NCBI GenBank assembly: GCA_036985755.1
Contig: BTQG01000002.1
Span: 2,277-66,276, forward strand
Source of the DNA: Acidimicrobiia bacterium
GTDB taxonomy: Bacteria; Actinomycetota; Acidimicrobiia; Spongiisociales; UBA5794
DNA length: 64,000 nucleotides
Reading direction: 5' to 3'
Shown: positions 3,262 through 63,715 of the stretch, in pieces
How the letters are laid out: every line of letters begins with the position of its first letter
Numbering within the stretch: the stretch's first letter is position 1
Notes under the pieces: generated by a model
What the model was told of the DNA's origin: nothing
Database searches by the model: none
Seen by the model: only the letters and a program-made list of their open reading frames with translations
Position numbers and translations under genes: made by a program

Positions 3262-3624
3262 CTACTCGCTCGCCCACCGTTTGGCCGCCTCGACGTCGGC
3301 GGTGGCATAGACCTTGATCTCGCCGGGGACCATCCAGCCGAGGAATTTGAGAGCGTCGTCGACCCAGTCCTTGTCGGTGACCAGGGCGATCTTCTCCCAG
3401 GCCCCCCAGTTTCCGATGCCGAGTTTGGTGTCCTCCCACATGGCGCCGCCGGTATAGCCATCGAACTGGTCTCCGAGCAGGTAGATCAGGCGGAGCTTGT
3501 CATTGCTGAGCAATGCTGCGTCGACGGCAGGGTCGAGGGTGGTCTTGTAGTCGCCGGCGTCGACCTCGCCGACGGCTTCGAAGCCGATCACGTTGTCCGG
3601 GAGGTTGTCCATCATCTTGATCAC
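3262..3624 (-). CDS. Small STAS/SpoIIAA-like (SEC14-type) domain protein
   Basis: 120-aa ORF MIKMMDNLPDNVIGFEAVGEVD...YTGGAMWEDTKLGIGNWGAWEKIALVTDKDWV. It has no Cys. It lies 39 nt downstream of the rSAM gene and 70 nt upstream of the cyclase gene on the same strand. Confidence 0.55.
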   Translation of the reverse strand: MIKMMDNLPDNVIGFEAVGEVDAGDYKTTLDPAVDAALLSNDKLRLIYLLGDQFDGYTGGAMWEDTKLGIGNWGAWEKIALVTDKDWVDDALKFLGWMVPGEIKVYATADVEAAKRWASE

Positions 3625-3663
3625 GGTGTTCTCCTCATGCGTGGGCGAGCAATCGACCCCTAA

Positions 3664-5151
3664 TCACGACCGTGCGGATCGAATCCGCCGACCCCGAGCA
3701 GCAGCCGCCTTCTTGCCCCGCTCGGTGACCGGTGGTCGGGGGACACCCTTGTGGTCGGGCAGGGCATGGCGTGGATCCCCCGCCTGCGTCCTGCCGTGAC
3801 AGCGCTTCACCTTCTCACCACTCCCGCAGGGGCAAGGGCCGTTGCGCCCTGCCGCCTTCAGCGCCGCATCGAAAGCGAGCTCGTCCCGAGTCAGCAGGGT
3901 CATCACCTCGTCCGCGGGGCGTCCCGCTCGCATCGCGGAGACCATCATCTGCATCGGCCGGTCGACGTGGTGGAAGAACTTCTTGAAGCCATCACACAGG
4001 TAGTTCAGGCCGGGTTCGCCGTCCGGGGTCTCGAGGAAGCGATTCTTCGGGCACTCGCCGTGGCAGGCGAAGCGGACGTCGCAGTCGCGGCAGTACTGGG
4101 GCAGCGTTGTCAGCTTGTCCTGACCGAAGGCGTACTGCTGCCGGCCGCTCACGATTTCCCTCATACTGGTGTCGGTGATGTTGCCGACGAGGAACTCAGG
4201 GTCGACAAAGTGGTCGCAGGAGTACAGATCTCCGTTGTGCTCGAGGGCGAGTCCGGTCCCGCAGGTCTCGTTGAACACGCACATCCCCGACGACAGTCCC
4301 ATCCAATTGCGCGCCGCCGCCTCGAAAGTCTGGACAAACACGCGCCCGACGTCGTTACGGACCCACTCGTCGAAGATCGTGATCAGGAAGTTGCCGAACT
4401 GCTCGGCTCCGACGGATCGATCCGAGGCGTAGGGGCCGCGCAGATGGGCGGGCTCGCCGTGCTCATCGACGCGCTCCACCACCGGGATGAATTGCATCCA
4501 GTCGGTGCCGACTTCGTCGCGCAGGAACCGGTACACCTCGGTGGGGTAGTCGCCGTTGATCGCGTTCACTGTGGTGAGCACGTTGTATTCCACACCGTGT
4601 TTCTGTAGGAGGCGGAGCCCGCGCATCACCTTGTCGAACGAGCCGTCGCCCCCCTTGTACACGCGATAGGCGTCATGCAGCTCGCGGGGCCCGTCGATGC
4701 TGATACCGATCAGAAAGTCGTGCTCCTTGTAGAACTCGCACCACTCGTCGTTGAGAAGGGTGCCGTTGGTCTGCATGGTGTTGAGGAACGTCATGCCCGG
4801 TTTTGCGTGCTGGTTCTGCAACTCGATGGAGCGCCGGTAGAAATCGACCCCCATCAGCGTCGGCTCGCCACCCTGCCAGGCGACGGTCACCTGCGGCACG
4901 TCGTGGGCCCCGATGAGCTGACGGATGTACTCGTCGAGCAGGTGGTCCGACATGTGGAAACGATCGCCCTCGTAGAGCAGTTCCTTGTCCAAGAAGAAGC
5001 AATAGGAGCAGGCGAGGTTGCAGATCGCCCCGGTCGGCTTGGCCAGGATATGGACCGCCGGGGGTGACCAGGCGGCCGCCGACGCCGCCGAGGCGGGACG
5101 TACGCTCGGAGCCGGCAATGGTGAGATTCTGGCCGCGGCGTCGTCCGGCAT
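3664..5151 (-). CDS. Radical SAM/SPASM enzyme of the anaerobic sulfatase-maturating enzyme (anSME) type with C-terminal SEC-C motif
   Basis: Carries the CNLACSYCF CxxxCxxC motif, then GGEPTL, MQTNGTLL, ISIDGP...HD..R and Cys-rich SPASM-type clusters (CDHFVDPEF...CRDCDVRFACHGECPKNRF). The C-terminus has CPCGSGEKVKRCHG (SEC-C). The true start may be internal to the 495-aa ORF. Confidence 0.8.
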   Translation of the reverse strand: MPDDAAARISPLPAPSVRPASAASAAAWSPPAVHILAKPTGAICNLACSYCFFLDKELLYEGDRFHMSDHLLDEYIRQLIGAHDVPQVTVAWQGGEPTLMGVDFYRRSIELQNQHAKPGMTFLNTMQTNGTLLNDEWCEFYKEHDFLIGISIDGPRELHDAYRVYKGGDGSFDKVMRGLRLLQKHGVEYNVLTTVNAINGDYPTEVYRFLRDEVGTDWMQFIPVVERVDEHGEPAHLRGPYASDRSVGAEQFGNFLITIFDEWVRNDVGRVFVQTFEAAARNWMGLSSGMCVFNETCGTGLALEHNGDLYSCDHFVDPEFLVGNITDTSMREIVSGRQQYAFGQDKLTTLPQYCRDCDVRFACHGECPKNRFLETPDGEPGLNYLCDGFKKFFHHVDRPMQMMVSAMRAGRPADEVMTLLTRDELAFDAALKAAGRNGPCPCGSGEKVKRCHGRTQAGDPRHALPDHKGVPRPPVTERGKKAAAARGRRIRSARS

Positions 5152-29982: not shown

Positions 29983-31269
29983 TTAGACCTCGGCATCTTC
30001 GCGGTCCGGCGTCGGCGCCCGAGTGGGCCCGGCCATCACCTCGACGAGCACCACCACGCCGAGGACCGCGGCAAAGGTGGCGATCACGAGCAGACCGCTC
30101 GGAGTGGGCCCGAAGAGCACGAACAACAGACCGAGGGTCGTCACGACCACCTGAATCGTCCGCTTCCACTCGGCAAGGAACGTCGTGAACCCGCTCGGCT
30201 CCTCCTCCGTCGGTCTCCTCCATCCGTCGATCGTCTTCGCGCCCCAGGAACTCAATCGCTGTGCACGCGTCGACGGACCCAACAGCCATGCGAGCAAACC
30301 AACGATGAGCGCCAACACCAACAACGCCCAGGTGAAAGAAGTCAGCCTGCTGAACGTCGTGTCCCAGACGGCGATACCGGCCTCTCGTGCCAGGTCGTCT
30401 TCGATTCCCCCGAGCACGGCGTTCTGCGCCACCCTGTCCGCCGCCAGTTGGATCAACATGGCGATCGCCGTTGCGAAACCGAGGATGGCCACCATGCGTC
30501 TCCGATCGACGGCAACCCATACCGCGGCAGCGATCAGGAGCAGTGCCACCACGGGGAGGACCCAACCGGCGGTGCTGATCCCCTGGGCCACCCCCTGGGC
30601 GGTCGCAAGCTCATCGCTCTCATAGATGACGATCGAGCCCAATTCGAAGTCGATATCGGGCAAATCGACCCCGCCAGCTTCGACCCGATCCACGATCACG
30701 ACAGCCAACTCGTCGAGGTTGATGGCGATCTGGCCGTTCTCACTCTGCAGCGCCCCGTCGTTGCCGGTGAGTAAGGCGCTCACCGCAATGTGGGTACCGC
30801 GCAAGTTCACCGCCCACACGGTGGCGGCGGCGTCGGACCGGATGACTTCGTTGGCGGCCCGTGCAATCAGCTGCTCGATCGAAGCGGTGATCGGAGCGGC
30901 AAGAAGACTCAGCTCATCGGGGAGGCGGTCGGCGACGAACGTTTGCACCTCTTGTGATTCGACGATACCGCTGGCGACGCGGGTCGAGAGGAACTCGGCC
31001 ACGGCATCGTCTTGGGTGAGGCCATCGAAGGTTGCGACAAACTGGTCCTCATCCTCGAGGGTCGTCTTCAGCCACAGCGCATCGACGGCGACGACAAGGG
31101 TGAGGATGGCGAGCACGGCGAGGGTGCCGGCAAGCACCTTCCTCCACACCGGGTGGCGTTCCGGCTGCGATTCGAGTTGCGTCCGGAGCGCCTCATTCTC
31201 TTCCCTCAACGCGGTGATCTCGGTCAGGTCGACGACGTCGTCGGCCTGTGATTTTAGTTCATCAGCCAT
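29983..31269 (-). CDS. Hypothetical membrane protein with N-terminal coiled coil
   Basis: MADELKSQADDVVDLTEITALREENEALRTQLES..., then multiple TM helices. It lies downstream (same strand) of the Prx-like gene. Confidence 0.55.
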   Translation of the reverse strand: MADELKSQADDVVDLTEITALREENEALRTQLESQPERHPVWRKVLAGTLAVLAILTLVVAVDALWLKTTLEDEDQFVATFDGLTQDDAVAEFLSTRVASGIVESQEVQTFVADRLPDELSLLAAPITASIEQLIARAANEVIRSDAAATVWAVNLRGTHIAVSALLTGNDGALQSENGQIAINLDELAVVIVDRVEAGGVDLPDIDFELGSIVIYESDELATAQGVAQGISTAGWVLPVVALLLIAAAVWVAVDRRRMVAILGFATAIAMLIQLAADRVAQNAVLGGIEDDLAREAGIAVWDTTFSRLTSFTWALLVLALIVGLLAWLLGPSTRAQRLSSWGAKTIDGWRRPTEEEPSGFTTFLAEWKRTIQVVVTTLGLLFVLFGPTPSGLLVIATFAAVLGVVVLVEVMAGPTRAPTPDREDAEV

Positions 31270-31377
31270 GGGTGCCCTCCCTGTGAAACCGCCCCGAGAA
31301 CAGTGGGATCGGCTGCCGGCCCGAAGCACGACCCGAGGGATTCTAGGTTTGCCCCCGTTCCTTGCGTGTGGGCGATA

Positions 31378-32061
31378 TCAGTCCTGCGCGAGAGAATTCC
31401 TGAGTTCCTGGACGGCCTCGATGTAGCGGTCCATCTCGGCGACGTATGCCTTGGCATCGGCTTTGAACTCCGCGCCGAGCTCTCTATGCCTGAGACCAAG
31501 GGCCTGGACCGCGAAACGGGCCCCCTTGAGGTAGTAAGGAAGACCGTCGAGCGGCATCGCCCTCTTTCCCGGCTCGGGCACTCCCGGTGTCGGTGCCTGC
31601 TGGGACGTTGGCCCGAGGCCGAGGCCCTGTACCACCTCGAGCACATCGTGTTCGGGAAGCCGGTCGGCGTAATCACGCGAGACGAAGCGGAAGGCTTCGT
31701 TGCCTTCACCGTCGACGAGGATCATCGCGGGACGGGCGAGGTTGCGCAGGTCGTCTGGGTCGGCCACACCGTACGGCTCGATCGCCAGCGACCGGTCGGG
31801 ATCGGAGAGCACGGGGAACGGGAGCTGCAGGCTTGCCACGATGGCGGCATGTTGACCGACGGAGTCCACGGAGATGGAAACGACCCGGGCACCGGCGTCG
31901 AGGAACTCCTGGTGTCGTGAAGCCAAGCTGACCAGCTGGCCGCCACAGTACGGTCACCAGTCTCCACGATTGAACACGAGCAGCATTGCCGCATCGCGGT
32001 GCTCGGAAAGCGTCCAGGGGTCTCCGGCCTGATCGGGAAGCGTGAAGTCGGGAACAGCCAT
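31378..32061 (-). CDS. Candidate selenoprotein: AhpC/TSA-2 (Prx-like) thioredoxin-fold protein with in-frame UGA (compl. 31954-31956) at the first Cys of the W-C-P-x-C motif
   Basis: Translated from the ATG (compl. 32059-32061): MAVPDFTLPDQAGDPWTLSEHRDAAMLLVFNRGDW-U-PYCGGQLVSLASRHQEFLDAGARVVSISVDS... It continues in the same frame to 31378. The track ORF 31378..31926 is the C-terminal part only. Confidence 0.55.
31922..31940 (-). promoter_or_regulatory. SECIS-like hairpin 13 nt 3' of the in-frame UGA
   Basis: mRNA: UGA-ccguacuguggcg-GCCAGCU-GGUC-AGCU(U)GGC. It has a 7-bp stem with a bulged U and a GGUC apical loop. Confidence 0.45.
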
Positions 32062-32098: not shown

Positions 32099-32638
32099 CT
32101 ACCGGACCGCGTACCGCGGTCCGTGGCCCGGCACGATCATCGTTGCCAGCTCCAGTACCCTGGCGCGATGCTGCTCCAGCAGTTCGGGGTTGGTGGCGAG
32201 CCGATCATTGCCTGCACCTTCGAACACCCATAGGTGGGTCAGTGCCGCTACTCCATCGTCGGTGTCCACCAGGGTGGTGATGTCCTGCGGGGTGTGGCCG
32301 GGTGTTTCGAGCAGACGAACGCCGGGGGACAACTGCACGCCCTCCGCGGGGCGCGAGATCCATCGGTCATGGTGGTAGATCGCCCAGTGGTCGTGGATCC
32401 GCACGTCGGGAAAGAGGGCGATGTTGATCGTGTGGTCTGGATGATGGTGCGAGATGATGACGTCGGTCACCTGCTCGACCGGCACCCCGAGCCCGGCCAG
32501 TGGGTCGAGGATGGAAGCCCGCGACGGCACCATCCCCGGGTCGACGATCGCAACCAGGTCGCCGTCGCGAATCAGGCTCACCGTGCTGGCCACGCCGTCG
32601 CCGCCGTACCCGTCGAACAGCACGTCCAGTCTCGCCAC
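32099..32638 (-). CDS. MBL-fold metallo-hydrolase
   Basis: IISHHHPDHT (HxHxDH), GHTPQD and a later HG. It lies 37 nt upstream of the Prx-like candidate selenoprotein on the same strand. Confidence 0.8.
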   Translation of the reverse strand: MARLDVLFDGYGGDGVASTVSLIRDGDLVAIVDPGMVPSRASILDPLAGLGVPVEQVTDVIISHHHPDHTINIALFPDVRIHDHWAIYHHDRWISRPAEGVQLSPGVRLLETPGHTPQDITTLVDTDDGVAALTHLWVFEGAGNDRLATNPELLEQHRARVLELATMIVPGHGPRYAVR

Positions 32639-58331: not shown

Positions 58332-59162
58332 GTGACGTCATTCAGATTCATCTTCATGGCAGATTGCCAGCTCGGCGCCTACGCCACCTTCAGTGGCATG
58401 AACGAGGAGGACATTGCCGGCTTCGACGCTCGAGAGATGCGAGTCGAGATCGTTCCCAGAGTGGAGGGGTTCGCCTGGGACGCCGAGCGCTATCGCTCGG
58501 CGATCAACATGGCGAACGCAATCCGTCCCGAATTCGTGGTGATGGGTGGTGATATGACCGACGACGCCGCCGACCAGGAACAGGTCGATGAGCTGCTGGC
58601 AATCACCTCCACCCTCGATCCGGAGATTCCCATGCTGTGGGTTCCCGGCAACCACGACGTCGCCGCCGACACGGTGGCCCCGACGATGGCCAGCATCGGT
58701 GCCTACCGCGACGTGTTCGGCGCCGACTATTACGGATTCGACCACGGCGACGTGCGCTTCGTCGTGCTCAACACCGTCGTCATCGATCATCCGGAGAACG
58801 TGGAGGACGAATTGGTCGAGCAGCTTGCATTCGTCGAATTCGAGCTGTCCCGGTCGGCCGAGCACTCGCATACGATCTTGCTCGGCCACCATCCGTTGTT
58901 CCTCGCCTCCTCCGACGAGGCGGATACCTACTGGAACATCCCGGCCGAGCGTCGCAGCACGCTGCTCGACCTCATCCACCGCCACGGGATAACGATCGCC
59001 TTCGCCGGGCATTGGCACCGCAACTCGCTCGCCTACGACGGGGACTTCGAGATGGTGACGTCCGGTCCGGTCGGCTACACGCTGGGTGACGATCCATCGG
59101 GTGTGCGGATCGTGGACGTCGGCCCGGAGCGGATCCTCCACGAATACGTACCCCTCAGCTGA
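58332..59162 (+). CDS. Calcineurin-like metallophosphoesterase
   Basis: GDMTDD, GNHD and GHxH motifs are present. The start is GTG. Confidence 0.8.
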   Translation: MTSFRFIFMADCQLGAYATFSGMNEEDIAGFDAREMRVEIVPRVEGFAWDAERYRSAINMANAIRPEFVVMGGDMTDDAADQEQVDELLAITSTLDPEIPMLWVPGNHDVAADTVAPTMASIGAYRDVFGADYYGFDHGDVRFVVLNTVVIDHPENVEDELVEQLAFVEFELSRSAEHSHTILLGHHPLFLASSDEADTYWNIPAERRSTLLDLIHRHGITIAFAGHWHRNSLAYDGDFEMVTSGPVGYTLGDDPSGVRIVDVGPERILHEYVPLS

Positions 59163-60882
59163 TACCGGACGCGGACCCATCGCAGACCGGTATCGTCTGG
59201 AAACGAATGGCGGGAGGAATAGCCTGAGCACACCAATCATCTTTGCGGTCGACGACGATCCCCAGGTTCTCAACGCGGTGAGGCGTGACTTGCGGTCCCA
59301 CTTTGCGCCCGATTATCGGGTGCTCGATGCCGGTTCGGGGGCAGAGGCACTCGAAGCCCTTGAAGCACTCAAAGCCCGTGGGGACACGGTCGCGCTCTTT
59401 CTCGTCGACCAGCGTATGCCGTCGATGACCGGCACCGAGTTCCTCGTCGAAGCCCGCCACACCTACCCCGACGCCAAAAGGGCTCTGCTCACCGCGTATG
59501 CCGACACCGACGCCGCCATTTCTGCGATCAACGAGGTGGATCTCGACCACTATCTGATGAAGCCGTGGGATCCGCCGGAGGACAACCTGTACCCGATCCT
59601 CGATGACCTGCTCGACGACTGGACGGCCAATACACCGGCGCCGTTTGACGGAATCAGAGTCGTAGGCACCACCTGGTCACCCGCTACCCACGAGGTAAAG
59701 GACTTTCTGGCGAGGAACCAGATCCCGTACCGGTTCCTCGACATCGAACGGGACGAGGAGGCCGAGGCCATCGTCGCCGCCCAGTCCGGGGACGGCGGAT
59801 CCCTCCCGGTCGTGCTCTTTCCCGACGGCACCACCCTGGTCGATCCGGAGCGGCGCGCCCTCGCCGCACAGCTGGGTATGCAGACCGAGGCCGACAGCCC
59901 GTTCTACGACCTCATCATCATCGGGGGCGGACCGGCAGGACTTGCCGGTGCGGTGTACGGGGCATCGGAGGGGCTGCGCACGGTGATGGTCGAGGCCGAC
60001 GCGCCGGGCGGCCAAGCAGGCACGAGCAGCCGGATCGAAAACTACCTCGGCTTTCCTGCCGGCGTCAGCGGTGCCGACCTGACGCGGCGAGCCGTCACCC
60101 AGGCCACCAGGCTCGGCGCGGAGCTGCTCAGCGCCACCACGGTGACCGACGTCAAGACCGAGGACCAGATCAAAGTCGTCACTCTCGATACCGGCGAACA
60201 GCTCCGATCCCACGCTTTGATCATCGCCAGCGGCATGTCGCTGCGGAAGCTCAGCGTTCCCGGCTACGAACGTTACGAAGGCGCCGGGGTCTACTACGGT
60301 GCCGCCCTCTCCGAGGCCGCCACCTACCAGGATCGTCACGTGTTCGTGATCGGCGGAGCGAACTCAGCGGGGCAGGCAGCAATGCTGTTTGCCCGCTACG
60401 CCTCGACGGTGTCGATGGTGGTAAGGGGCGAGTCACTCGTCGCCAAGATGTCGGCCTACCTGATCGACCAGATCGGGACCCAGCCAAACATCGAAGTGAT
60501 CACCGACACCCAGGTCGTCGCCGTCGAGGGTGAGGAGCGCGTCGAGCGCATCCGGCTCAAGAACACCGCAACGGACCAGGAAGACGTTCACGAGGCTGCC
60601 GCCATCTTCATCTTCGTTGGTGCCGTTCCACACTCCGATTTTGTCGAGCACCTCGTCGCCCGCAACGAGCGTGGTTTCATCTACACCGGCCCCGACCTGG
60701 TGCTGGCAGGCGAGGACTTCCGCTGGCCTGAAGATCGTGACCCTCTGGCGCTGGAAACGAGCGTCCCTGGTATATTCGCCGCCGGCGATATCCGCCACGA
60801 TGCCATCCGCAGAGTGGCCTCCGCAGTAGGTTCCGGGTCGGTTGCGGTGAGCCTGGTCCATCAGTACCTCGACACGGTGTGA
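59086..60882 (+). CDS. Response-regulator receiver domain fused to thioredoxin-reductase-like FAD/NAD(P) disulfide oxidoreductase
   Basis: The receiver has IIFAVDDD...D...K. The TrxR-like part has GGGPAGLAGA, a second Rossmann motif GGANSAGQAAM and a C-terminal GDIR. The start is uncertain: no ATG or GTG sits close to the receiver N-terminus, and the first in-frame GTG, at 59086, overlaps the previous gene. Confidence 0.7.
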   Translation: MTIHRVCGSWTSARSGSSTNTYPSADTGRGPIADRYRLETNGGRNSLSTPIIFAVDDDPQVLNAVRRDLRSHFAPDYRVLDAGSGAEALEALEALKARGDTVALFLVDQRMPSMTGTEFLVEARHTYPDAKRALLTAYADTDAAISAINEVDLDHYLMKPWDPPEDNLYPILDDLLDDWTANTPAPFDGIRVVGTTWSPATHEVKDFLARNQIPYRFLDIERDEEAEAIVAAQSGDGGSLPVVLFPDGTTLVDPERRALAAQLGMQTEADSPFYDLIIIGGGPAGLAGAVYGASEGLRTVMVEADAPGGQAGTSSRIENYLGFPAGVSGADLTRRAVTQATRLGAELLSATTVTDVKTEDQIKVVTLDTGEQLRSHALIIASGMSLRKLSVPGYERYEGAGVYYGAALSEAATYQDRHVFVIGGANSAGQAAMLFARYASTVSMVVRGESLVAKMSAYLIDQIGTQPNIEVITDTQVVAVEGEERVERIRLKNTATDQEDVHEAAAIFIFVGAVPHSDFVEHLVARNERGFIYTGPDLVLAGEDFRWPEDRDPLALETSVPGIFAAGDIRHDAIRRVASAVGSGSVAVSLVHQYLDTV

Positions 60883-60886
60883 CCCG

Positions 60887-62296
60887 GTGCGAGAGGAGCT
60901 TCGCACCGTCCCCCTATTTGCCGATCTCGCCGACGACGACCTCGATTGCCTGGCCGAAGGCGCCACCGTGGTGTCCCTCGACCCGGGCGATCTCCTGTTC
61001 AACGAGGGGGACGACGGCGATCAGGCGTACGTGATCACCGACGGTGAGATCGAGATCGTGAAGATCACAGGGGAACGAGAGGTGCTGCTGGCCAGGAGGC
61101 TCCCCGGAGAGGTCATCGGTGAGATGGCGCTGCTCGACTCCGCCCCGCGCATGGCGTCGGGCAGGGCGGTAGAAGAGACCCGCCTCATCGCCATACCGAA
61201 AAGCCAGATGGATCAGCTGCTCGAGTCCAGCGCAACCGCAGCCAAGGCCCTGTTCTCGGTGCTGCTGGCTAGGTGGCGGCAAACCGAAGCCAGCCTTCGC
61301 CAATCCGAGCGCATGGTTCAGCTGGGCACACTCACCGCCGGCCTCGCCCACGAGCTGAACAACCCTGCCGCCGCAATCGCCCGCGCCTCAGGGCTGCTCG
61401 GGCCGGAACTCGAAGCCTACGGACGCGCCGCTGCCGCACTCGGCCACATCACCGTCCCTGCCGACCAGCAGGGCCAGCTCGATGAGTGGCTGGCCGCTGC
61501 GGCACAACCCGGTCCGGTGATGGGCTCACTCGAGCGTTCCGAACGTGAGGCGGAACTCGAACCAGCTCTCGGCGCCATCGGCGTCGCCGAGCCCTGGGCG
61601 GTGGCGACCGAGCTCGCCTTCGCCGGGTGGGACGCCGACACCGTCGCCGCTGTCGGCGAGGCGTTCGCAGCCGACGCTCCCGTGGTGCTCCAGGCCGTCG
61701 CCATGACCCGCAATGTGTCCGAGTTGTTACGCGAGATCAACGAGGGGGCAGGGCGCATGTCCGAGATCGTTGGTGCGTTGAAGTCGTACACACACCTCGA
61801 TCAGGCGCCGATCCAGGAGGTCGACGTGCGCAAGGGCCTCGAGGACACGTTGCTCATCCTCAAACCAAAGCTGAGCGATATCGACGTCGAGATCGAGTTC
61901 GCAGACGTCCCCGAGATCACTGCCTACGCCGGTGAGCTCAACCAGGTTTGGACCAACCTCATCGACAATGCCGCCGACGCCGTTGCCTCCTCGGGCAGGG
62001 AGGACGGGATGGTGACCCTTCGCACCTCTGCCGATGACGGCATCGTCACCGTCGAAATCGAAGACAACGGGACGGGGATCCCAGAGGGAGACGTCGACCG
62101 GATCTTCGACGCCTTCTTCACCACCAAACCACCTGGTTCAGGGACCGGCCTCGGTCTCGACATCAGCTATTCGATCATCGTGCACAAACACCGCGGCGCC
62201 ATCACCGTCGATTCCGAGCCGGGACGCACCGTGTTCTCCGTCAAGCTCCCGGTCGCCGGGCCCGACCAGGGGTCTCGGACCGCGCCCAGGGGGTAG
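60887..62296 (+). CDS. cNMP-binding domain + histidine kinase (HisKA + HATPase_c)
   Basis: The CAP-like PLFADL...GE.IGEMALL...R.A, an H-box LAHELNNP and G-boxes (DNGTGIP, GTGLGL) are present. The start is the GTG 4 nt after the upstream gene. Confidence 0.8.
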   Translation: MREELRTVPLFADLADDDLDCLAEGATVVSLDPGDLLFNEGDDGDQAYVITDGEIEIVKITGEREVLLARRLPGEVIGEMALLDSAPRMASGRAVEETRLIAIPKSQMDQLLESSATAAKALFSVLLARWRQTEASLRQSERMVQLGTLTAGLAHELNNPAAAIARASGLLGPELEAYGRAAAALGHITVPADQQGQLDEWLAAAAQPGPVMGSLERSEREAELEPALGAIGVAEPWAVATELAFAGWDADTVAAVGEAFAADAPVVLQAVAMTRNVSELLREINEGAGRMSEIVGALKSYTHLDQAPIQEVDVRKGLEDTLLILKPKLSDIDVEIEFADVPEITAYAGELNQVWTNLIDNAADAVASSGREDGMVTLRTSADDGIVTVEIEDNGTGIPEGDVDRIFDAFFTTKPPGSGTGLGLDISYSIIVHKHRGAITVDSEPGRTVFSVKLPVAGPDQGSRTAPRG

Positions 62297-62663: not shown

Positions 62664-62756
<93 letters not shown>

Positions 62757-62955
62757 GGGAACGTAGTACGTATCACGTAGTACGCATCACGTAGTCCGAC
62801 GTCCGCAACACGGACCACCGACTACTCATGACAGGGTACCGGCGTAAACGCGCATGCCGTGATCTGTACTCCGTAGCCCAGGGTTCGGCTCGAAATACGT
62901 GATACTTGATACGCAATACGGGCGTACGTAATACGGTCCGGCGCAGCCGGGCCCG

Positions 62956-63045
62956 CGGAGGGAGTGGGATTTGAACCCACGAAGCGGGGATACCGCTTAC
63001 ACGCTTTCCAGGCGTGCGCACTCGGCCAGACTATGCGATCCCTCC
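62956..63045 (-). tRNA. tRNA-Ser(GGA)
   Basis: Reverse complement: GGAGGGATCGCATAGTCTGGCCGAGTGCGCACGCCTGGAAAGCGTGTAAGCGGTATCCCCGCTTCGTGGGTTCAAATCCCACTCCCTCCG. Confidence 0.85.
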
Positions 63046-63081
63046 CTAGGGTGTGAAAGTGTAGAAGGAGGCTTCTGGCAA

Positions 63082-63531
63082 ATGGATGCCGTCGACGCCA
63101 TGGGAATCGCCCTCGAGCAAGCCGGCCTCGCACTCGAGCACGGCGACGTGCCGATTGGTGCCATGCTGCTTGACCGCTCGGGTGAGGTGGTTGCGGCCGA
63201 TCACAACCGGCGCCAGCAGCGAGGCGACGCGACCGCCCATGCCGAACTGCTGGTGCTCTCCGCACGATCACGCGAGATCGGTGACTGGCGACTCACCGGG
63301 CACACCCTTGTCGTCACCGTGGAGCCGTGTGCAATGTGTGCCATGGCCGCGGTATGGGCGCGAGTGGACCGCATCGTCTACGGTGCCGCCGATCCCAAGG
63401 CCGGTGCTGCGTGGAGCCTGTACAACATTCCCCAGGACGAACGGCTCAACCATCGGTGCGATCTGATCGCCGGCGTACGCGAGGACGAGGCCGCCGCGTT
63501 GCTCGAGTCCTTCTTCTCTGATCGAAGGTAG
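63082..63531 (+). CDS. tadA: tRNA-specific adenosine deaminase
   Basis: A GAAGGAGG SD, then MDAVDAMGIALEQAGLALEHGDVPIGAMLL with the HAE...PCAMCAMA zinc motif. Adjacency to tRNA-Ser genes is typical. Confidence 0.85.
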   Translation: MDAVDAMGIALEQAGLALEHGDVPIGAMLLDRSGEVVAADHNRRQQRGDATAHAELLVLSARSREIGDWRLTGHTLVVTVEPCAMCAMAAVWARVDRIVYGAADPKAGAAWSLYNIPQDERLNHRCDLIAGVREDEAAALLESFFSDRR

Positions 63532-63623
63532 CCACCGGTACACTGCTCGCCGGTGCCTGCAGCACCGACCGTATTACGTATCACGTATCCGGGTCGTAAT
63601 ACGTTGTACGTGATACGTACTTT

Positions 63624-63715
63624 GGAGGGGTGACAGAGCGGACGAATGTGACGGTCTCGAAAACCGTTGGGCCGGTTTCTCGGTCCCGTGGGTTCAAATC
63701 CCACCCCCTCCGCCA
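63624..63715 (+). tRNA. tRNA-Ser(CGA)
   Basis: GGAGGGGTGACAGAGCGGACGAATGTGACGGTCTCGAAAACCGTTGGGCCGGTTTCTCGGTCCCGTGGGTTCAAATCCCACCCCCTCCGCCA. Confidence 0.85.

What the first reader, a model, noticed from the sequence alone, without database searches (positions are those of the whole stretch)
31378..32061. Prx-like thioredoxin-fold gene with in-frame UGA exactly at the catalytic Cys codon plus a downstream SECIS-like hairpin: candidate selenoprotein split by the ORF caller
Reading the minus strand from the ATG at 32061 gives MAVPDFTLPDQAGDPWTLSEHRDAAMLLVFNRGDW-TGA-PYCGGQLVSL..., and the same frame continues for 190 more codons as the rest of an AhpC/TSA-2 thioredoxin fold (..VVSISVDS..LPFPVLSDPDRS..YGV..ARPAMILVDGEGNEAFRFV..). 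The TGA occupies the position of the first Cys of the family's F-x-R-G-x-W-C-P-x-C redox motif, which is where Prx-like selenoproteins carry Sec (U-x-x-C). Thirteen nt downstream, the mRNA can form GCCAGCU-GGUC-AGCU(U)GGC, a 7-bp stem with a bulged U and a G/U-containing apical loop, at the distance expected for a bacterial SECIS. The alternative reading is a TTG-initiated C-terminal fragment lacking the CxxC strand, which would be a non-functional thioredoxin fold. In a 70% GC genome where TGA is the common stop codon this gene would normally be mis-annotated as truncated.
Basis: partly seen in the sequence, partly recalled or inferred. Interest (0 to 1): 0.8.

Follow-up and report, generated by a model that had tools for sequence, protein, structure and literature searches.

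The report
Mis-annotated selenocysteine Prx-like redox gene
This is almost certainly a real selenoprotein gene: a peroxiredoxin-fold redox protein whose active-site residue is encoded by a UGA "stop" codon. That makes gene callers truncate it, but it is an ordinary new member of a selenoprotein class known since 2005.

Summary
A minus-strand ORF (32061..31378) has one in-frame TGA (31956..31954) in the motif RGDW-U-PY-C of a PF00578 fold, followed by a hairpin with a GGUC loop.

The selenoprotein reading is strongly supported:
- TGA occupies this column in all 30 genomic orthologues (Acidimicrobiia and other Actinomycetota MAGs) and in 70 of 72 metagenomic relatives.
- The protein sequence is conserved in frame on both sides of the TGA.
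- More distant homologues have Cys there (RGDWCPYCNGQL).
- The same gene ends with a TGA stop in the window and in 20 of 30 orthologues, so the genetic code is not reassigned.
- Synonymous-site variation collapses only over codons +3 to +9 after the UGA, which is exactly the hairpin.
- Other clades replace that hairpin with differently built ones. All have a G-containing loop 16-21 nt after the UGA, as in the published bacterial SECIS model.

Two caveats apply. The hairpin alone is weak evidence, because 30% of control positions pass the same model. The Sec machinery (selA, selB, selC, selD) could not be checked in 64 kb.

The active site is thioredoxin-like (UxxC plus an invariant Pro) on a BCP/AhpE scaffold, with a conserved, unmatched C-terminal two-helix extension.

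Verdict: a new member of the known Prx-like UxxC selenoproteins, truncated in public databases.

The parts
31378..32061 (-). Complete coding sequence of the selenoprotein: 227 residues, from ATG 32061..32059 to the terminal TGA 31380..31378.
   Evidence: Translation. Pfam PF00578, E = 2.2e-26. Full-length tblastn matches (query residues 1-227 or 5-220) in 30 genomic loci.
31954..31956 (-). In-frame UGA at codon 36, read as selenocysteine (U36) in the motif R-G-D-W-U-P-Y-C.
   Evidence: TGA in 31 of 31 orthologues and in 70 of 72 metagenomic relatives. Cys in distant homologues.
31945..31947 (-). TGT codon of C39, the resolving partner in the UxxC pair. It aligns with the peroxidatic Cys of BCP-type peroxiredoxins.
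   Evidence: phmmer alignments to 5enu and 2cx3. Invariant in 31 of 31 orthologues.
31922..31940 (-). SECIS core hairpin GCCAGCU-GGUC-AGC(U)UGGC: 7 bp, bulged U at 31926, apical loop GGUC at 31933..31930, 20 nt after the UGA.
   Evidence: Folds (core -8.5 kcal/mol). 97.7% of cells are paired in 31 orthologues. Synonymous entropy collapses here. Meets the bSECIS constraints quoted.
31917..31946 (-). Extended stem around the SECIS core in the window sequence (12 bp, -11.9 kcal/mol). This lower part is not conserved in relatives.
   Evidence: window row. Variable flanks are visible in alignments A1 and A4.
31621..32061 (-). Thioredoxin/peroxiredoxin-fold domain (residues about 1-147), BCP/AhpE-like.
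31381..31620 (-). Conserved Pro/Gly-rich linker plus a C-terminal two-helix hairpin (residues about 148-227; motifs Y-x-R-G-A-R-F-A and D-S/A-K-A-Y-V-A-E-M-D-R). No known family or fold match.
   Evidence: Conserved columns. Helices 170-191 and 196-223 in the model. No Pfam hit even at E = 10. Not covered by any PDB match.
31378..31926 (-). The 182-aa TTG-initiated ORF that a standard ORF finder reports instead of the full gene. It is an annotation artefact.
   Evidence: Database homologues start at many different downstream positions (144-194 aa).

Best explanation
The locus encodes a 227-residue cytoplasmic selenoprotein of the Prx-like thiol:disulfide oxidoreductase kind (PF00578 fold, UxxC motif).

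During translation, the UGA at codon 36 is decoded as selenocysteine. The mRNA hairpin that begins 13 nt downstream (loop GGUC, 20 nt after the UGA) acts as a bacterial SECIS: it recruits SelB carrying Sec-tRNA(Sec) to the ribosome. The second TGA, at codon 228, has no such hairpin and terminates translation.

In the protein, U36 sits at the N-terminus of helix alpha-1. It occupies the position of the Thr of the peroxiredoxin TxxC motif, or equivalently the first Cys of a thioredoxin-like CxxC. Its selenolate is the attacking nucleophile, and it cycles with C39 through an intramolecular selenenylsulfide that a thioredoxin-type reductant re-reduces.

The invariant Pro111 replaces the peroxiredoxin catalytic Arg, and Arg32 replaces the motif Pro. 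The chemistry is therefore thioredoxin/ResA-like on a BCP scaffold, not that of a canonical peroxiredoxin.

Shown: the conserved UGA, the in-frame conservation, the Sec/Cys pairing, the constrained hairpin, the fold, and the active-site substitutions. Inferred: actual Sec insertion, SelB binding, the redox cycle, the substrate, and the role of the C-terminal helical extension.
For: 1. **TGA is conserved.** It occupies the column in 31 of 31 genomic orthologues that are 41-95% identical to each other as proteins, and in 70 of 72 metagenomic relatives down to about 37% identity.
2. **The upstream part is translated in this frame.** The 29 codons upstream are conserved as amino acids while varying freely at synonymous sites. 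For example, Arg at column 25 uses 5 codons and Leu at column 11 uses 6.
3. **Sec/Cys pairs exist.** TGC is found in L091 and L107. RGDWC[PAS][YFW]C is found in P0122, P0124, P0127, P0133, P0134 and P0140.
4. **TGA is still a stop codon.** It ends this same gene in the window and in 20 of 30 orthologues, and it ends 25 of 51 rough gene calls in the window.
5. **Synonymous constraint is confined to the hairpin.** Normalised synonymous codon entropy is 0.17 over codons +3..+9 after the UGA and 0.755 elsewhere. The lowest six-column windows in the whole gene all lie there (Mann-Whitney p = 7.6e-6). Within this stretch the clearest free site is the bulged nucleotide (U/C).
6. **The published bSECIS constraints are met in the window** (constraints from PMC13188914: loop 3-9 nt, stem 4-16 bp, G in the first two loop positions, 16-37 nt spacing, MFE <= -7.5). 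The window has loop GGUC, 7-12 bp, 20 nt spacing, and -8.5 to -11.9 kcal/mol.
7. **Other clades use differently built hairpins at the same place.** These are ACGGCC-AGUU-GGCCGU, ACGGGC-AGUUG-GCC(U)CGU and GCCAGCUC-GUC-GAGCUGGC. Of 93 distinct sequences, 86 pair fully in one of the defined hairpin designs. Single compensated pairs also occur, such as C-G to U-A in L055.
8. **Public gene calls are truncated.** Of the best 120 hits, 119 are N-terminally truncated. P0014 has W where its DNA has TGA.
9. **Fold and active site.**
10. **Precedent in the class.** Sec machinery is reported in another order of the class Acidimicrobiia (preprint 10.64898/2026.04.03.716425).
Against: - No selA, selB, selD or tRNA-Sec was found in the window or in any fetched flank. 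This was only 64 kb plus flanks of at most 10 kb, and the protein probes were E. coli sequences recalled from memory. The machinery of this organism is therefore untested.
- The main hairpin class shows no double-compensatory changes within the 31 genomic orthologues. It is simply conserved.
- The single-sequence fold is no more stable than shuffles (z = 0.34).
- 29.5% of control positions pass the bSECIS constraints, and only 73 of 93 Sec sites pass the strict -7.5 kcal/mol cut-off.
- One Cys-form relative (L107) still has a perfect hairpin at this place.
- There is no experimental evidence of selenium incorporation.
Confidence: 0.88

Rival explanations
1. The UGA is recoded, but not to selenocysteine. 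A SelB-dependent non-canonical tRNA charged with Cys, or near-cognate read-through by Trp or Cys, inserts a standard amino acid. The protein would then be an ordinary CxxC or WxxC redoxin made from a UGA-containing gene.
For: Nothing in the sequence distinguishes Sec from another amino acid inserted at a SECIS-directed UGA, and the Sec machinery was not seen. UGA recoding to Cys by SelB with an unusual tRNA has been described in some bacteria; this rests on my own recollection and was not checked here.
Against: Conservation of TGA in 100 of 102 close relatives, when a single TGA-to-TGC/TGT change would give Cys directly, argues that the encoded residue is not Cys. The hairpin matches the SelB-type SECIS model. 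Sec machinery exists in the class.
Confidence: 0.05
2. The TGA is a true stop. Only the downstream fragment is made (TTG at 31926 or a later start), or the gene is a decaying pseudogene. The upstream 35 codons are untranslated leader.
For: This is what every standard gene caller reports. The single-sequence hairpin is not statistically unusual.
Against: The upstream 29 or more codons are under protein-level purifying selection in the same frame across 31 genomes, with free synonymous change. Downstream 'starts' differ from genome to genome (144-194 aa). The fragment would lack strands beta1-beta3 and the whole redox motif of a fold modelled at pLDDT 91. A pseudogene would not keep one identical stop in 100 lineages.
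Confidence: 0.03
3. The organism uses a genetic code in which TGA is a sense codon (Trp or Gly), as the JGI call of P0014 (W at this site) implies.
For: P0014 was deposited with W at the position.
Against: The DNA of P0014 has TGA, and its gene also ends in TGA. The window gene and 20 of 30 orthologues terminate with TGA. TGA ends 25 of 51 rough gene calls in the window. No other in-frame TGA appears in this gene in any of the orthologues.
Confidence: 0.01
4. Sequencing or assembly error: the true codon is TGC or TGT.
Against: The same TGA occurs in independent assemblies from at least 100 samples and MAGs.
Confidence: 0.005

Closest known systems
Prx-like thiol:disulfide oxidoreductase selenoproteins ('Prx-like 1', PF00578, UxxC). 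Described in the Sargasso Sea and GOS selenoproteomes (PMC1088965, PMC2398784) and listed in the 2026 review PMC13188914.
   Same: PF00578 fold and a UxxC motif with Sec as the first residue. The SECIS hairpin lies inside the coding region immediately after the UGA. Cys-containing homologues exist.
   Different: This clade (Acidimicrobiia and other Actinomycetota) carries a conserved C-terminal extension of about 80 residues (linker plus two-helix hairpin) with no family or fold match. It has the specific motif RGDW-U-PYC-NGQL. I could not compare it directly with the published representative (WP_010940744.1), so subfamily identity is untested.
BCP/PrxQ and AhpE peroxiredoxins (M. tuberculosis BcpB 5epf, AhpE 5id2/1xxu, A. 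pernix BCP 2cx3).
   Different: The catalytic motif P-x-x-x-T/S-x-x-C plus the distal Arg is not kept. Pro becomes Arg32, Thr/Ser becomes Sec36, and Arg becomes the invariant Pro111. Sequence identity is 20-27%. These proteins have no C-terminal helical hairpin.
ResA/TlpA-type thioredoxin-like CxxC oxidoreductases.
   Different: Those proteins are extracytoplasmic and membrane-anchored. This protein has no signal peptide or anchor, since the Prx fold starts at residue 2-3. Its overall fold is nearer to BCP.
NCBIfam selenoprotein models SelL_rel_redox (NF040769), peroxi_PrxU (NF040737) and WAxxUGC_long (NF041054).
   Same: Weak similarity over the N-terminal 90-100 residues, including the redox motif.
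   Different: All scores are far below the curated cut-offs: 40.7 vs 120, 33.3 vs 270, and 22.3 vs 300. No NCBI naming model covers this family, which fits with NCBI records calling it a truncated 'redoxin domain-containing protein' (P0075).
E. coli fdhF-type bacterial SECIS.
   Same: A hairpin in the coding sequence just 3' of the UGA, with a small apical loop containing G followed by G/U. The spacing is within the 16-37 nt of the consensus model. From memory only, the fdhF apical loop is also GGUC and has a bulged U nearby.
   Different: The bulge is on the 3' arm here. The sequence is otherwise unrelated. Sister clades use different hairpins (AGUU or AGUUG loops at +16). No Rfam model detects it.

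Membership tests
Bacterial selenoprotein gene (Sec-UGA plus bSECIS) | In-frame UGA conserved among orthologues, with protein conservation on both sides | tested here: met
   TGA in 31 of 31 genomic and 70 of 72 metagenomic relatives. Flanks are conserved in frame.
Bacterial selenoprotein gene (Sec-UGA plus bSECIS) | Homologues with Cys aligned to the UGA (Sec/Cys pair) | tested here: met
   L091 and L107 have TGC. P0122, P0124, P0127, P0133, P0134 and P0140 have RGDWCxxC.
Bacterial selenoprotein gene (Sec-UGA plus bSECIS) | Hairpin meeting the bSECIS model: loop 3-9 nt, stem 4-16 bp, G in the first two loop positions, 16-37 nt from the UGA, MFE <= -7.5 kcal/mol (PMC13188914) | tested here: met
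   Window: loop GGUC, 7-12 bp, spacing 20 nt, -8.5 (core) to -11.9 kcal/mol. Family-wide, 73 of 93 sites pass the strict cut-off against 29.5% of controls.
Bacterial selenoprotein gene (Sec-UGA plus bSECIS) | Evolutionary constraint on the RNA structure | tested here: met
   Synonymous entropy is 0.17 in the hairpin codons and 0.755 elsewhere, p = 7.6e-6. Different clades use alternative fully paired hairpin designs. Within the main class there are no double-compensatory changes.
Bacterial selenoprotein gene (Sec-UGA plus bSECIS) | selA, selB, selD and tRNA-Sec (selC) present in the same genome | not testable with these tools
   None found in the 64-kb window or in the fetched flanks. The rest of the genome is not available. 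The only precedent in the class Acidimicrobiia is from a preprint.
Bacterial selenoprotein gene (Sec-UGA plus bSECIS) | Selenium demonstrated in the protein | not testable with these tools
   Needs 75Se labelling or mass spectrometry.
Pfam AhpC-TSA (PF00578) | Score above the gathering threshold | tested here: met
   92.6 bits against a cut-off of 26, residues 2-120.
Canonical peroxiredoxin (peroxidatic active site) | P-x-x-x-T/S-x-x-Cp motif plus the conserved catalytic Arg | tested here: not met
   Cp is kept (C39), but Pro(-7) is Arg32, Thr(-3) is Sec36, and the Arg position (R122 of 2cx3) aligns with the invariant Pro111.
Thioredoxin-like CxxC thiol:disulfide oxidoreductase | C/U-x-x-C at the N-terminus of helix alpha-1 and a conserved Pro in the loop before the beta-strand that follows | tested here: met
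   U36-P-Y-C39 immediately precedes helix 36-47 of the model. Pro111 is invariant in 46 sequences. The cis conformation of Pro111 cannot be tested here.
Prx-like thiol:disulfide oxidoreductase selenoprotein family (Zhang & Gladyshev) | PF00578-type fold with Sec in a UxxC motif | tested here: met
   Family definition as tabulated in PMC13188914 and PMC2398784. No direct sequence comparison with the published representative was made.
NCBIfam SelL_rel_redox / PrxU / WAxxUGC_long | Score above the curated cut-off | tested here: not met
   40.7 vs 120, 33.3 vs 270, and 22.3 vs 300.

The most novel reading that the evidence does not exclude
This may be a distinct, almost exclusively Sec-using subfamily (about 98% TGA among the closest 100 relatives) of Prx-like proteins confined mainly to Acidimicrobiia and other Actinomycetota. 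Its strongly conserved C-terminal two-helix module would give it a substrate or partner specificity not shared with known Prx-like selenoproteins. Its SECIS would have been rebuilt at least three times in different registers (loop at +20, +16 or +21) while the UGA stayed fixed. That would make it a natural series for defining what an actinobacterial SelB actually recognises.
Probability: 0.3. Interest if true: 0.45.

Novelty: new member of a known kind. Interest (0 to 1): 0.3.

Why it matters
**Annotation.** The gene is truncated in essentially every public record found. Of the 120 best database hits, 119 are truncated, and the remaining one has a spurious Trp. No NCBIfam model covers the family. 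The active-site half of a conserved redox protein is therefore missing from protein databases for a whole clade of soil and sediment Acidimicrobiia.

**Biology.** The gene implies that these organisms decode selenocysteine, in a class where Sec use has barely been documented. It adds one more case in which Sec replaces the nucleophilic Cys of a thioredoxin-like UxxC centre.

**Limits.** It does not change any concept. The selenoprotein class, the recoding mechanism and the prediction criteria are all established.

Tried and rejected
- **Single-sequence folding as evidence.** Rejected. The z-score against shuffles is 0.34.
- **Rfam at gathering thresholds.** It found only four tRNAs, with no SECIS and no tRNA-Sec. 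Bacterial SECIS elements are not modelled there, so this carries no information.
- **tRNA-Sec search.** ARAGORN on the window and 31 loci found none.
- **Search for selD, selA and selB.** I ran tblastn with E. coli sequences recalled from memory against the window and loci, with no hits. This is a weak negative, because little sequence was searched and the probes were not verified.
- **RNAalifold and pair counting on the 31 genomic orthologues.** The stem is 97.7% paired but shows no double-compensatory changes, and the shuffle controls are uninformative because the columns are nearly invariant. The case for structure had to come from synonymous-site entropy and from the wider metagenomic set.
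- **First bSECIS scan based on the MFE of 48 nt.** It under-called the hairpin (16 of 31) and was replaced by local hairpin enumeration.
- **Conserved operon partners.** Synteny exists only with L001. No conserved neighbour was found in the other 29 genomic loci.
- **Heuristic scan of the window for other TGA-interrupted ORFs.** It gave no convincing second selenoprotein, and it also missed the true gene because its upstream arm is short.
- **Structure prediction of the window protein with Cys in place of U.** The 60%-identical orthologue P0014 was modelled instead.
- **afdb50 fold library.** Unavailable.
- **Source organism.** Only a Logan metagenome contig carries an identical neighbouring gene (DRR500112).
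Full report
**1. What is in the sequence**

On the minus strand, an ATG at 32061 opens a reading frame that runs to a TGA at 31380..31378. It is interrupted once, by a TGA at 31956..31954, which is codon 36. The product reads MAVPDFTL...LLVFNRGDW-[TGA]-PYCGGQLVSLASRH... and is 227 residues long.

A mechanical ORF list contains only the 182-aa piece that starts at the TTG at 31926. With Cys placed at the stop, the protein matches Pfam AhpC-TSA (PF00578, E = 2.2e-26, residues 2-120) and Redoxin (PF08534).

It is GCCAGCU-GGUC-AGC(U)UGGC at 31940..31922, beginning 13 nt after the TGA. The TTG 'start' of the mis-called ORF is the bulged U plus the next two bases of the 3' arm of this hairpin.

Two details need correcting. 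The window is 64% G+C rather than 70%. The Pfam family is PF00578.

**2. Is it more than chance?**

Taken alone, no. The 66-nt region folds no better than dinucleotide shuffles (z = 0.34). When I enumerated local hairpins under the published bacterial SECIS constraints, 29.5% of 1,200 other in-frame positions in these genes also passed. The case rests on comparison with relatives.

**3. Comparative evidence for recoding**

A scan of one genome per species returned 30 loci, almost all labelled Acidimicrobiia or Actinomycetota MAGs. Their tblastn matches span the whole 227 residues. Every one has TGA in the same column (W/F-TGA-P/S/T-Y-C), with the upstream peptide (...LLVFLRGDW) conserved in the same frame. 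These proteins are 41-95% identical to each other.

A codon-level table shows that the 29 codons upstream of the TGA are conserved as amino acids while varying freely at synonymous sites. That is the signature of translation in that frame.

A metagenome scan seeded on two peptide motifs far from the TGA returned 80 further loci, down to 37% identity. Of the 72 that include the motif region, 70 have TGA and two have TGC (L091 and L107).

A search of 1.8 billion cluster representatives found full-length Cys forms at 40-50% identity, such as FNRGDWCPYCNGQL in P0133. The classical Sec/Cys pair criterion is therefore met.

TGA is still a terminator in these organisms. It ends this very gene in the window and in 20 of 30 orthologues, and it ends 25 of 51 rough gene calls in the window. 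Code reassignment, sequencing error and pseudogenisation are thereby excluded.

**4. Evidence that the hairpin is a SECIS**

*Synonymous constraint.* Across the 31 genomic orthologues, normalised synonymous codon entropy averages 0.755. It falls to 0.17 over codons +3 to +9 after the UGA (C-N-G-Q-L-V-S). Every one of the lowest six-column windows in the gene lies there (Mann-Whitney p = 7.6e-6). For example, Ser (six codons available) is AGC in 28 of 29 sequences, and Val is GTC in 28 of 28. The next Leu uses only UUG or CUG, differing at the bulged nucleotide, and the third base of the following Ala, just outside the stem, varies freely.

*Pairing.* The stem is paired in 97.7% of cells, but it is too conserved to show double compensations.

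*Alternative designs.* The wider set supplies the missing variation. Of 93 distinct Sec-form sequences:
- 53 pair fully in design A (loop GGUC, 20 nt after the UGA);
- 12 pair in design B (ACGGCC-AGUU-GGCCGU, loop at +16);
- 18 pair in design C (ACGGGC-AGUUG-GCC(U)CGU, loop at +16);
- 3 pair in an unbulged variant (for example GCCAGCUC-GUC-GAGCUGGC in L079 and L099, loop at +21);
- 7 carry other variants, such as GGGCAGCU-GGUC-AGCU(UC)GCCC.

Individual compensated pairs also occur, such as C-G to U-A in L055. All designs keep a small loop with G in its first two positions, 16-21 nt after the UGA.

*Fit to the model.* The consensus bacterial SECIS model has a 3-9 nt loop, a 4-16 bp stem, G in the first two loop positions, 16-37 nt spacing and MFE <= -7.5 kcal/mol (PMC13188914). 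The window's element meets all four constraints: GGUC loop, 7-12 bp, 20 nt spacing, and -8.5 to -11.9 kcal/mol. Family-wide, 73 of 93 Sec sites pass the strict energy cut-off against 29.5% of controls. The failures are mostly the same design-A hairpin, whose core folds at -9.0 to -6.3 kcal/mol when its flanking bases are included.

**5. What could not be shown**

No tRNA-Sec and no selA, selB or selD were found in the window or in any fetched flank. That covers only 64 kb plus short flanks, and my protein probes were E. coli sequences written from memory. The rest of the genome is not available; an identical neighbouring gene is found only on a 3.3-kb Logan metagenome contig.

The nearest literature support is a 2026 preprint reporting selA, selB, selC and selD in all 84 complete Actinomarina genomes. 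Actinomarina belongs to the class Acidimicrobiia but to a different order. Sec decoding in this organism is therefore inferred, not shown.

**6. What the protein is**

An AlphaFold2 model of the 60%-identical orthologue P0014 is confident (pLDDT 91.4, pTM 0.86).

Sequence alignments to solved BCPs place C39 on the peroxidatic Cys and U36 on the Thr/Ser of the T/S-x-x-C motif. Arg32 falls on the motif Pro, and the invariant Pro111 falls on the catalytic Arg (R122 of 2cx3). The canonical peroxiredoxin active site is therefore not present.

My best mechanistic reading is as follows. The U36 selenolate attacks a disulfide, sulfenate or peroxide substrate. C39 resolves the adduct to an intramolecular Se-S bond, and a thioredoxin-type reductant recycles it. 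This is inference from the family's chemistry.

Residues 148-227 form a Pro/Gly-rich linker and two long helices (170-191 and 196-223 in the model). They carry many invariant or nearly invariant residues (Y177, R179, G180, R182, F183, R191, H192, D202, K204, M210, D211). They match no Pfam family even at E = 10 and no part of any PDB hit. Their role is unknown; a dimerisation or partner-docking element is my guess.

No neighbouring gene is conserved beyond the closest relative L001, so no operon context helps.

**7. Comparison with what is known**

Prx-like UxxC selenoproteins with a PF00578 fold are an established family. They appear as 'Prx-like 1' with 225 sequences in the GOS survey (PMC2398784) and as 'Prx-like thiol:disulfide oxidoreductase' in the 2026 review table (PMC13188914). 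The present gene meets that definition.

It does not reach the curated cut-off of any NCBIfam model, including the selenoprotein models SelL_rel_redox, PrxU and WAxxUGC_long. This fits the state of the databases. Of the 120 best hits, 119 are N-terminally truncated at various downstream starts (144-194 aa). The single 225-aa entry (P0014, labelled 'peroxiredoxin') shows Trp where its DNA has TGA.

**8. Verdict**

It is a new, systematically mis-annotated member of a known selenoprotein kind, not a new kind.

Its modest points of interest are:
- the near-exclusive use of Sec across about 100 relatives;
- the conserved but unexplained C-terminal module;
- the clade-specific redesign of the SECIS hairpin around a fixed UGA.

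Interest: 0.3.

Noticed in passing
L028:10100-10160, L029:10091-10151, L059, L064, L067, L069, L075-L077, L081, L083, L087 (class B); L084-L113 (class C): Orthologues in other clades replace the window's SECIS hairpin (loop GGUC at +20) with differently registered ones. These are ACGGCC-AGUU-GGCCGU and ACGGGC-AGUUG-GCC(U)CGU, both with the loop at +16. The 5' arm is shared, and the changes include amino-acid substitutions (V-S-L-A becomes A-V-M-A or A-S-Y-A).
   Followed up: partly
L107:1290-1350: A Cys-form relative (TGC; FFRGDWCPWCNGQL) still has a perfect 8-bp hairpin, GCCAGCUG-GCG-CAGCUGGC, at the SECIS position. It may be a fossil SECIS from a recent Sec-to-Cys change, or it may simply reflect the palindromic CAGCTG coding for Q-L. 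The other Cys form (L091) has no such hairpin.
   Followed up: no
L032:10001-10267: A distant Prx-like gene in a Planctomycetales MAG (37% identical over 88 residues) also has an in-frame TGA at the same column (HRYAT-TGA-PGC). A strong hairpin, GCGGC-AGUUC-GCCGC, follows 25 nt downstream. It is probably an independent Prx-like UxxC selenoprotein.
   Followed up: no
L034:582-1259 (protein P0014): The JGI record translates the TGA as Trp and annotates a full-length 'peroxiredoxin'. The contig was evidently called with a TGA=Trp code, which yields a database protein with a spurious W in the active site.
   Followed up: yes
L001 (JADFIY010000018.1): The closest genomic relative is labelled 'Acidobacteria bacterium'. 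It shares synteny with the window, and five neighbouring genes are 78-88% identical as proteins. Most other relatives are labelled Acidimicrobiia or Actinomycetota, so the label may be a mis-binning or misclassification.
   Followed up: no
window 29983-31329 (-): A 448-aa ORF lies immediately downstream of the selenoprotein gene on the same strand. It has no Pfam or NCBIfam match and is conserved only in L001 (78% identity).
   Followed up: partly
window 32099-32638 (-): A short (179-aa) metallo-beta-lactamase-fold gene ends 37 nt upstream of the selenoprotein start on the same strand. The pairing is kept in L001 only.
   Followed up: partly
window 3262-5151 (-): A radical SAM/SPASM-domain gene (3664-5151) is followed in the same frame by a 120-aa ORF (3262-3624). 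The two are separated by a single TGA and 39 stop-free nucleotides. This is probably two adjacent genes, possibly a peptide-maturase locus.
   Followed up: no
window 59086-62296 (+): A response-regulator receiver domain is fused to a pyridine-nucleotide-disulphide oxidoreductase (598 aa). It is directly followed by a protein with a cNMP-binding domain and a histidine-kinase-type ATPase domain (469 aa). This is an unusual redox and signalling pairing.
   Followed up: no
window 62665-63715: Three tRNA-Ser genes (anticodons GCU, GGA and CGA) are clustered within 1.1 kb. None is a tRNA-Sec (no UCA anticodon).
   Followed up: yes
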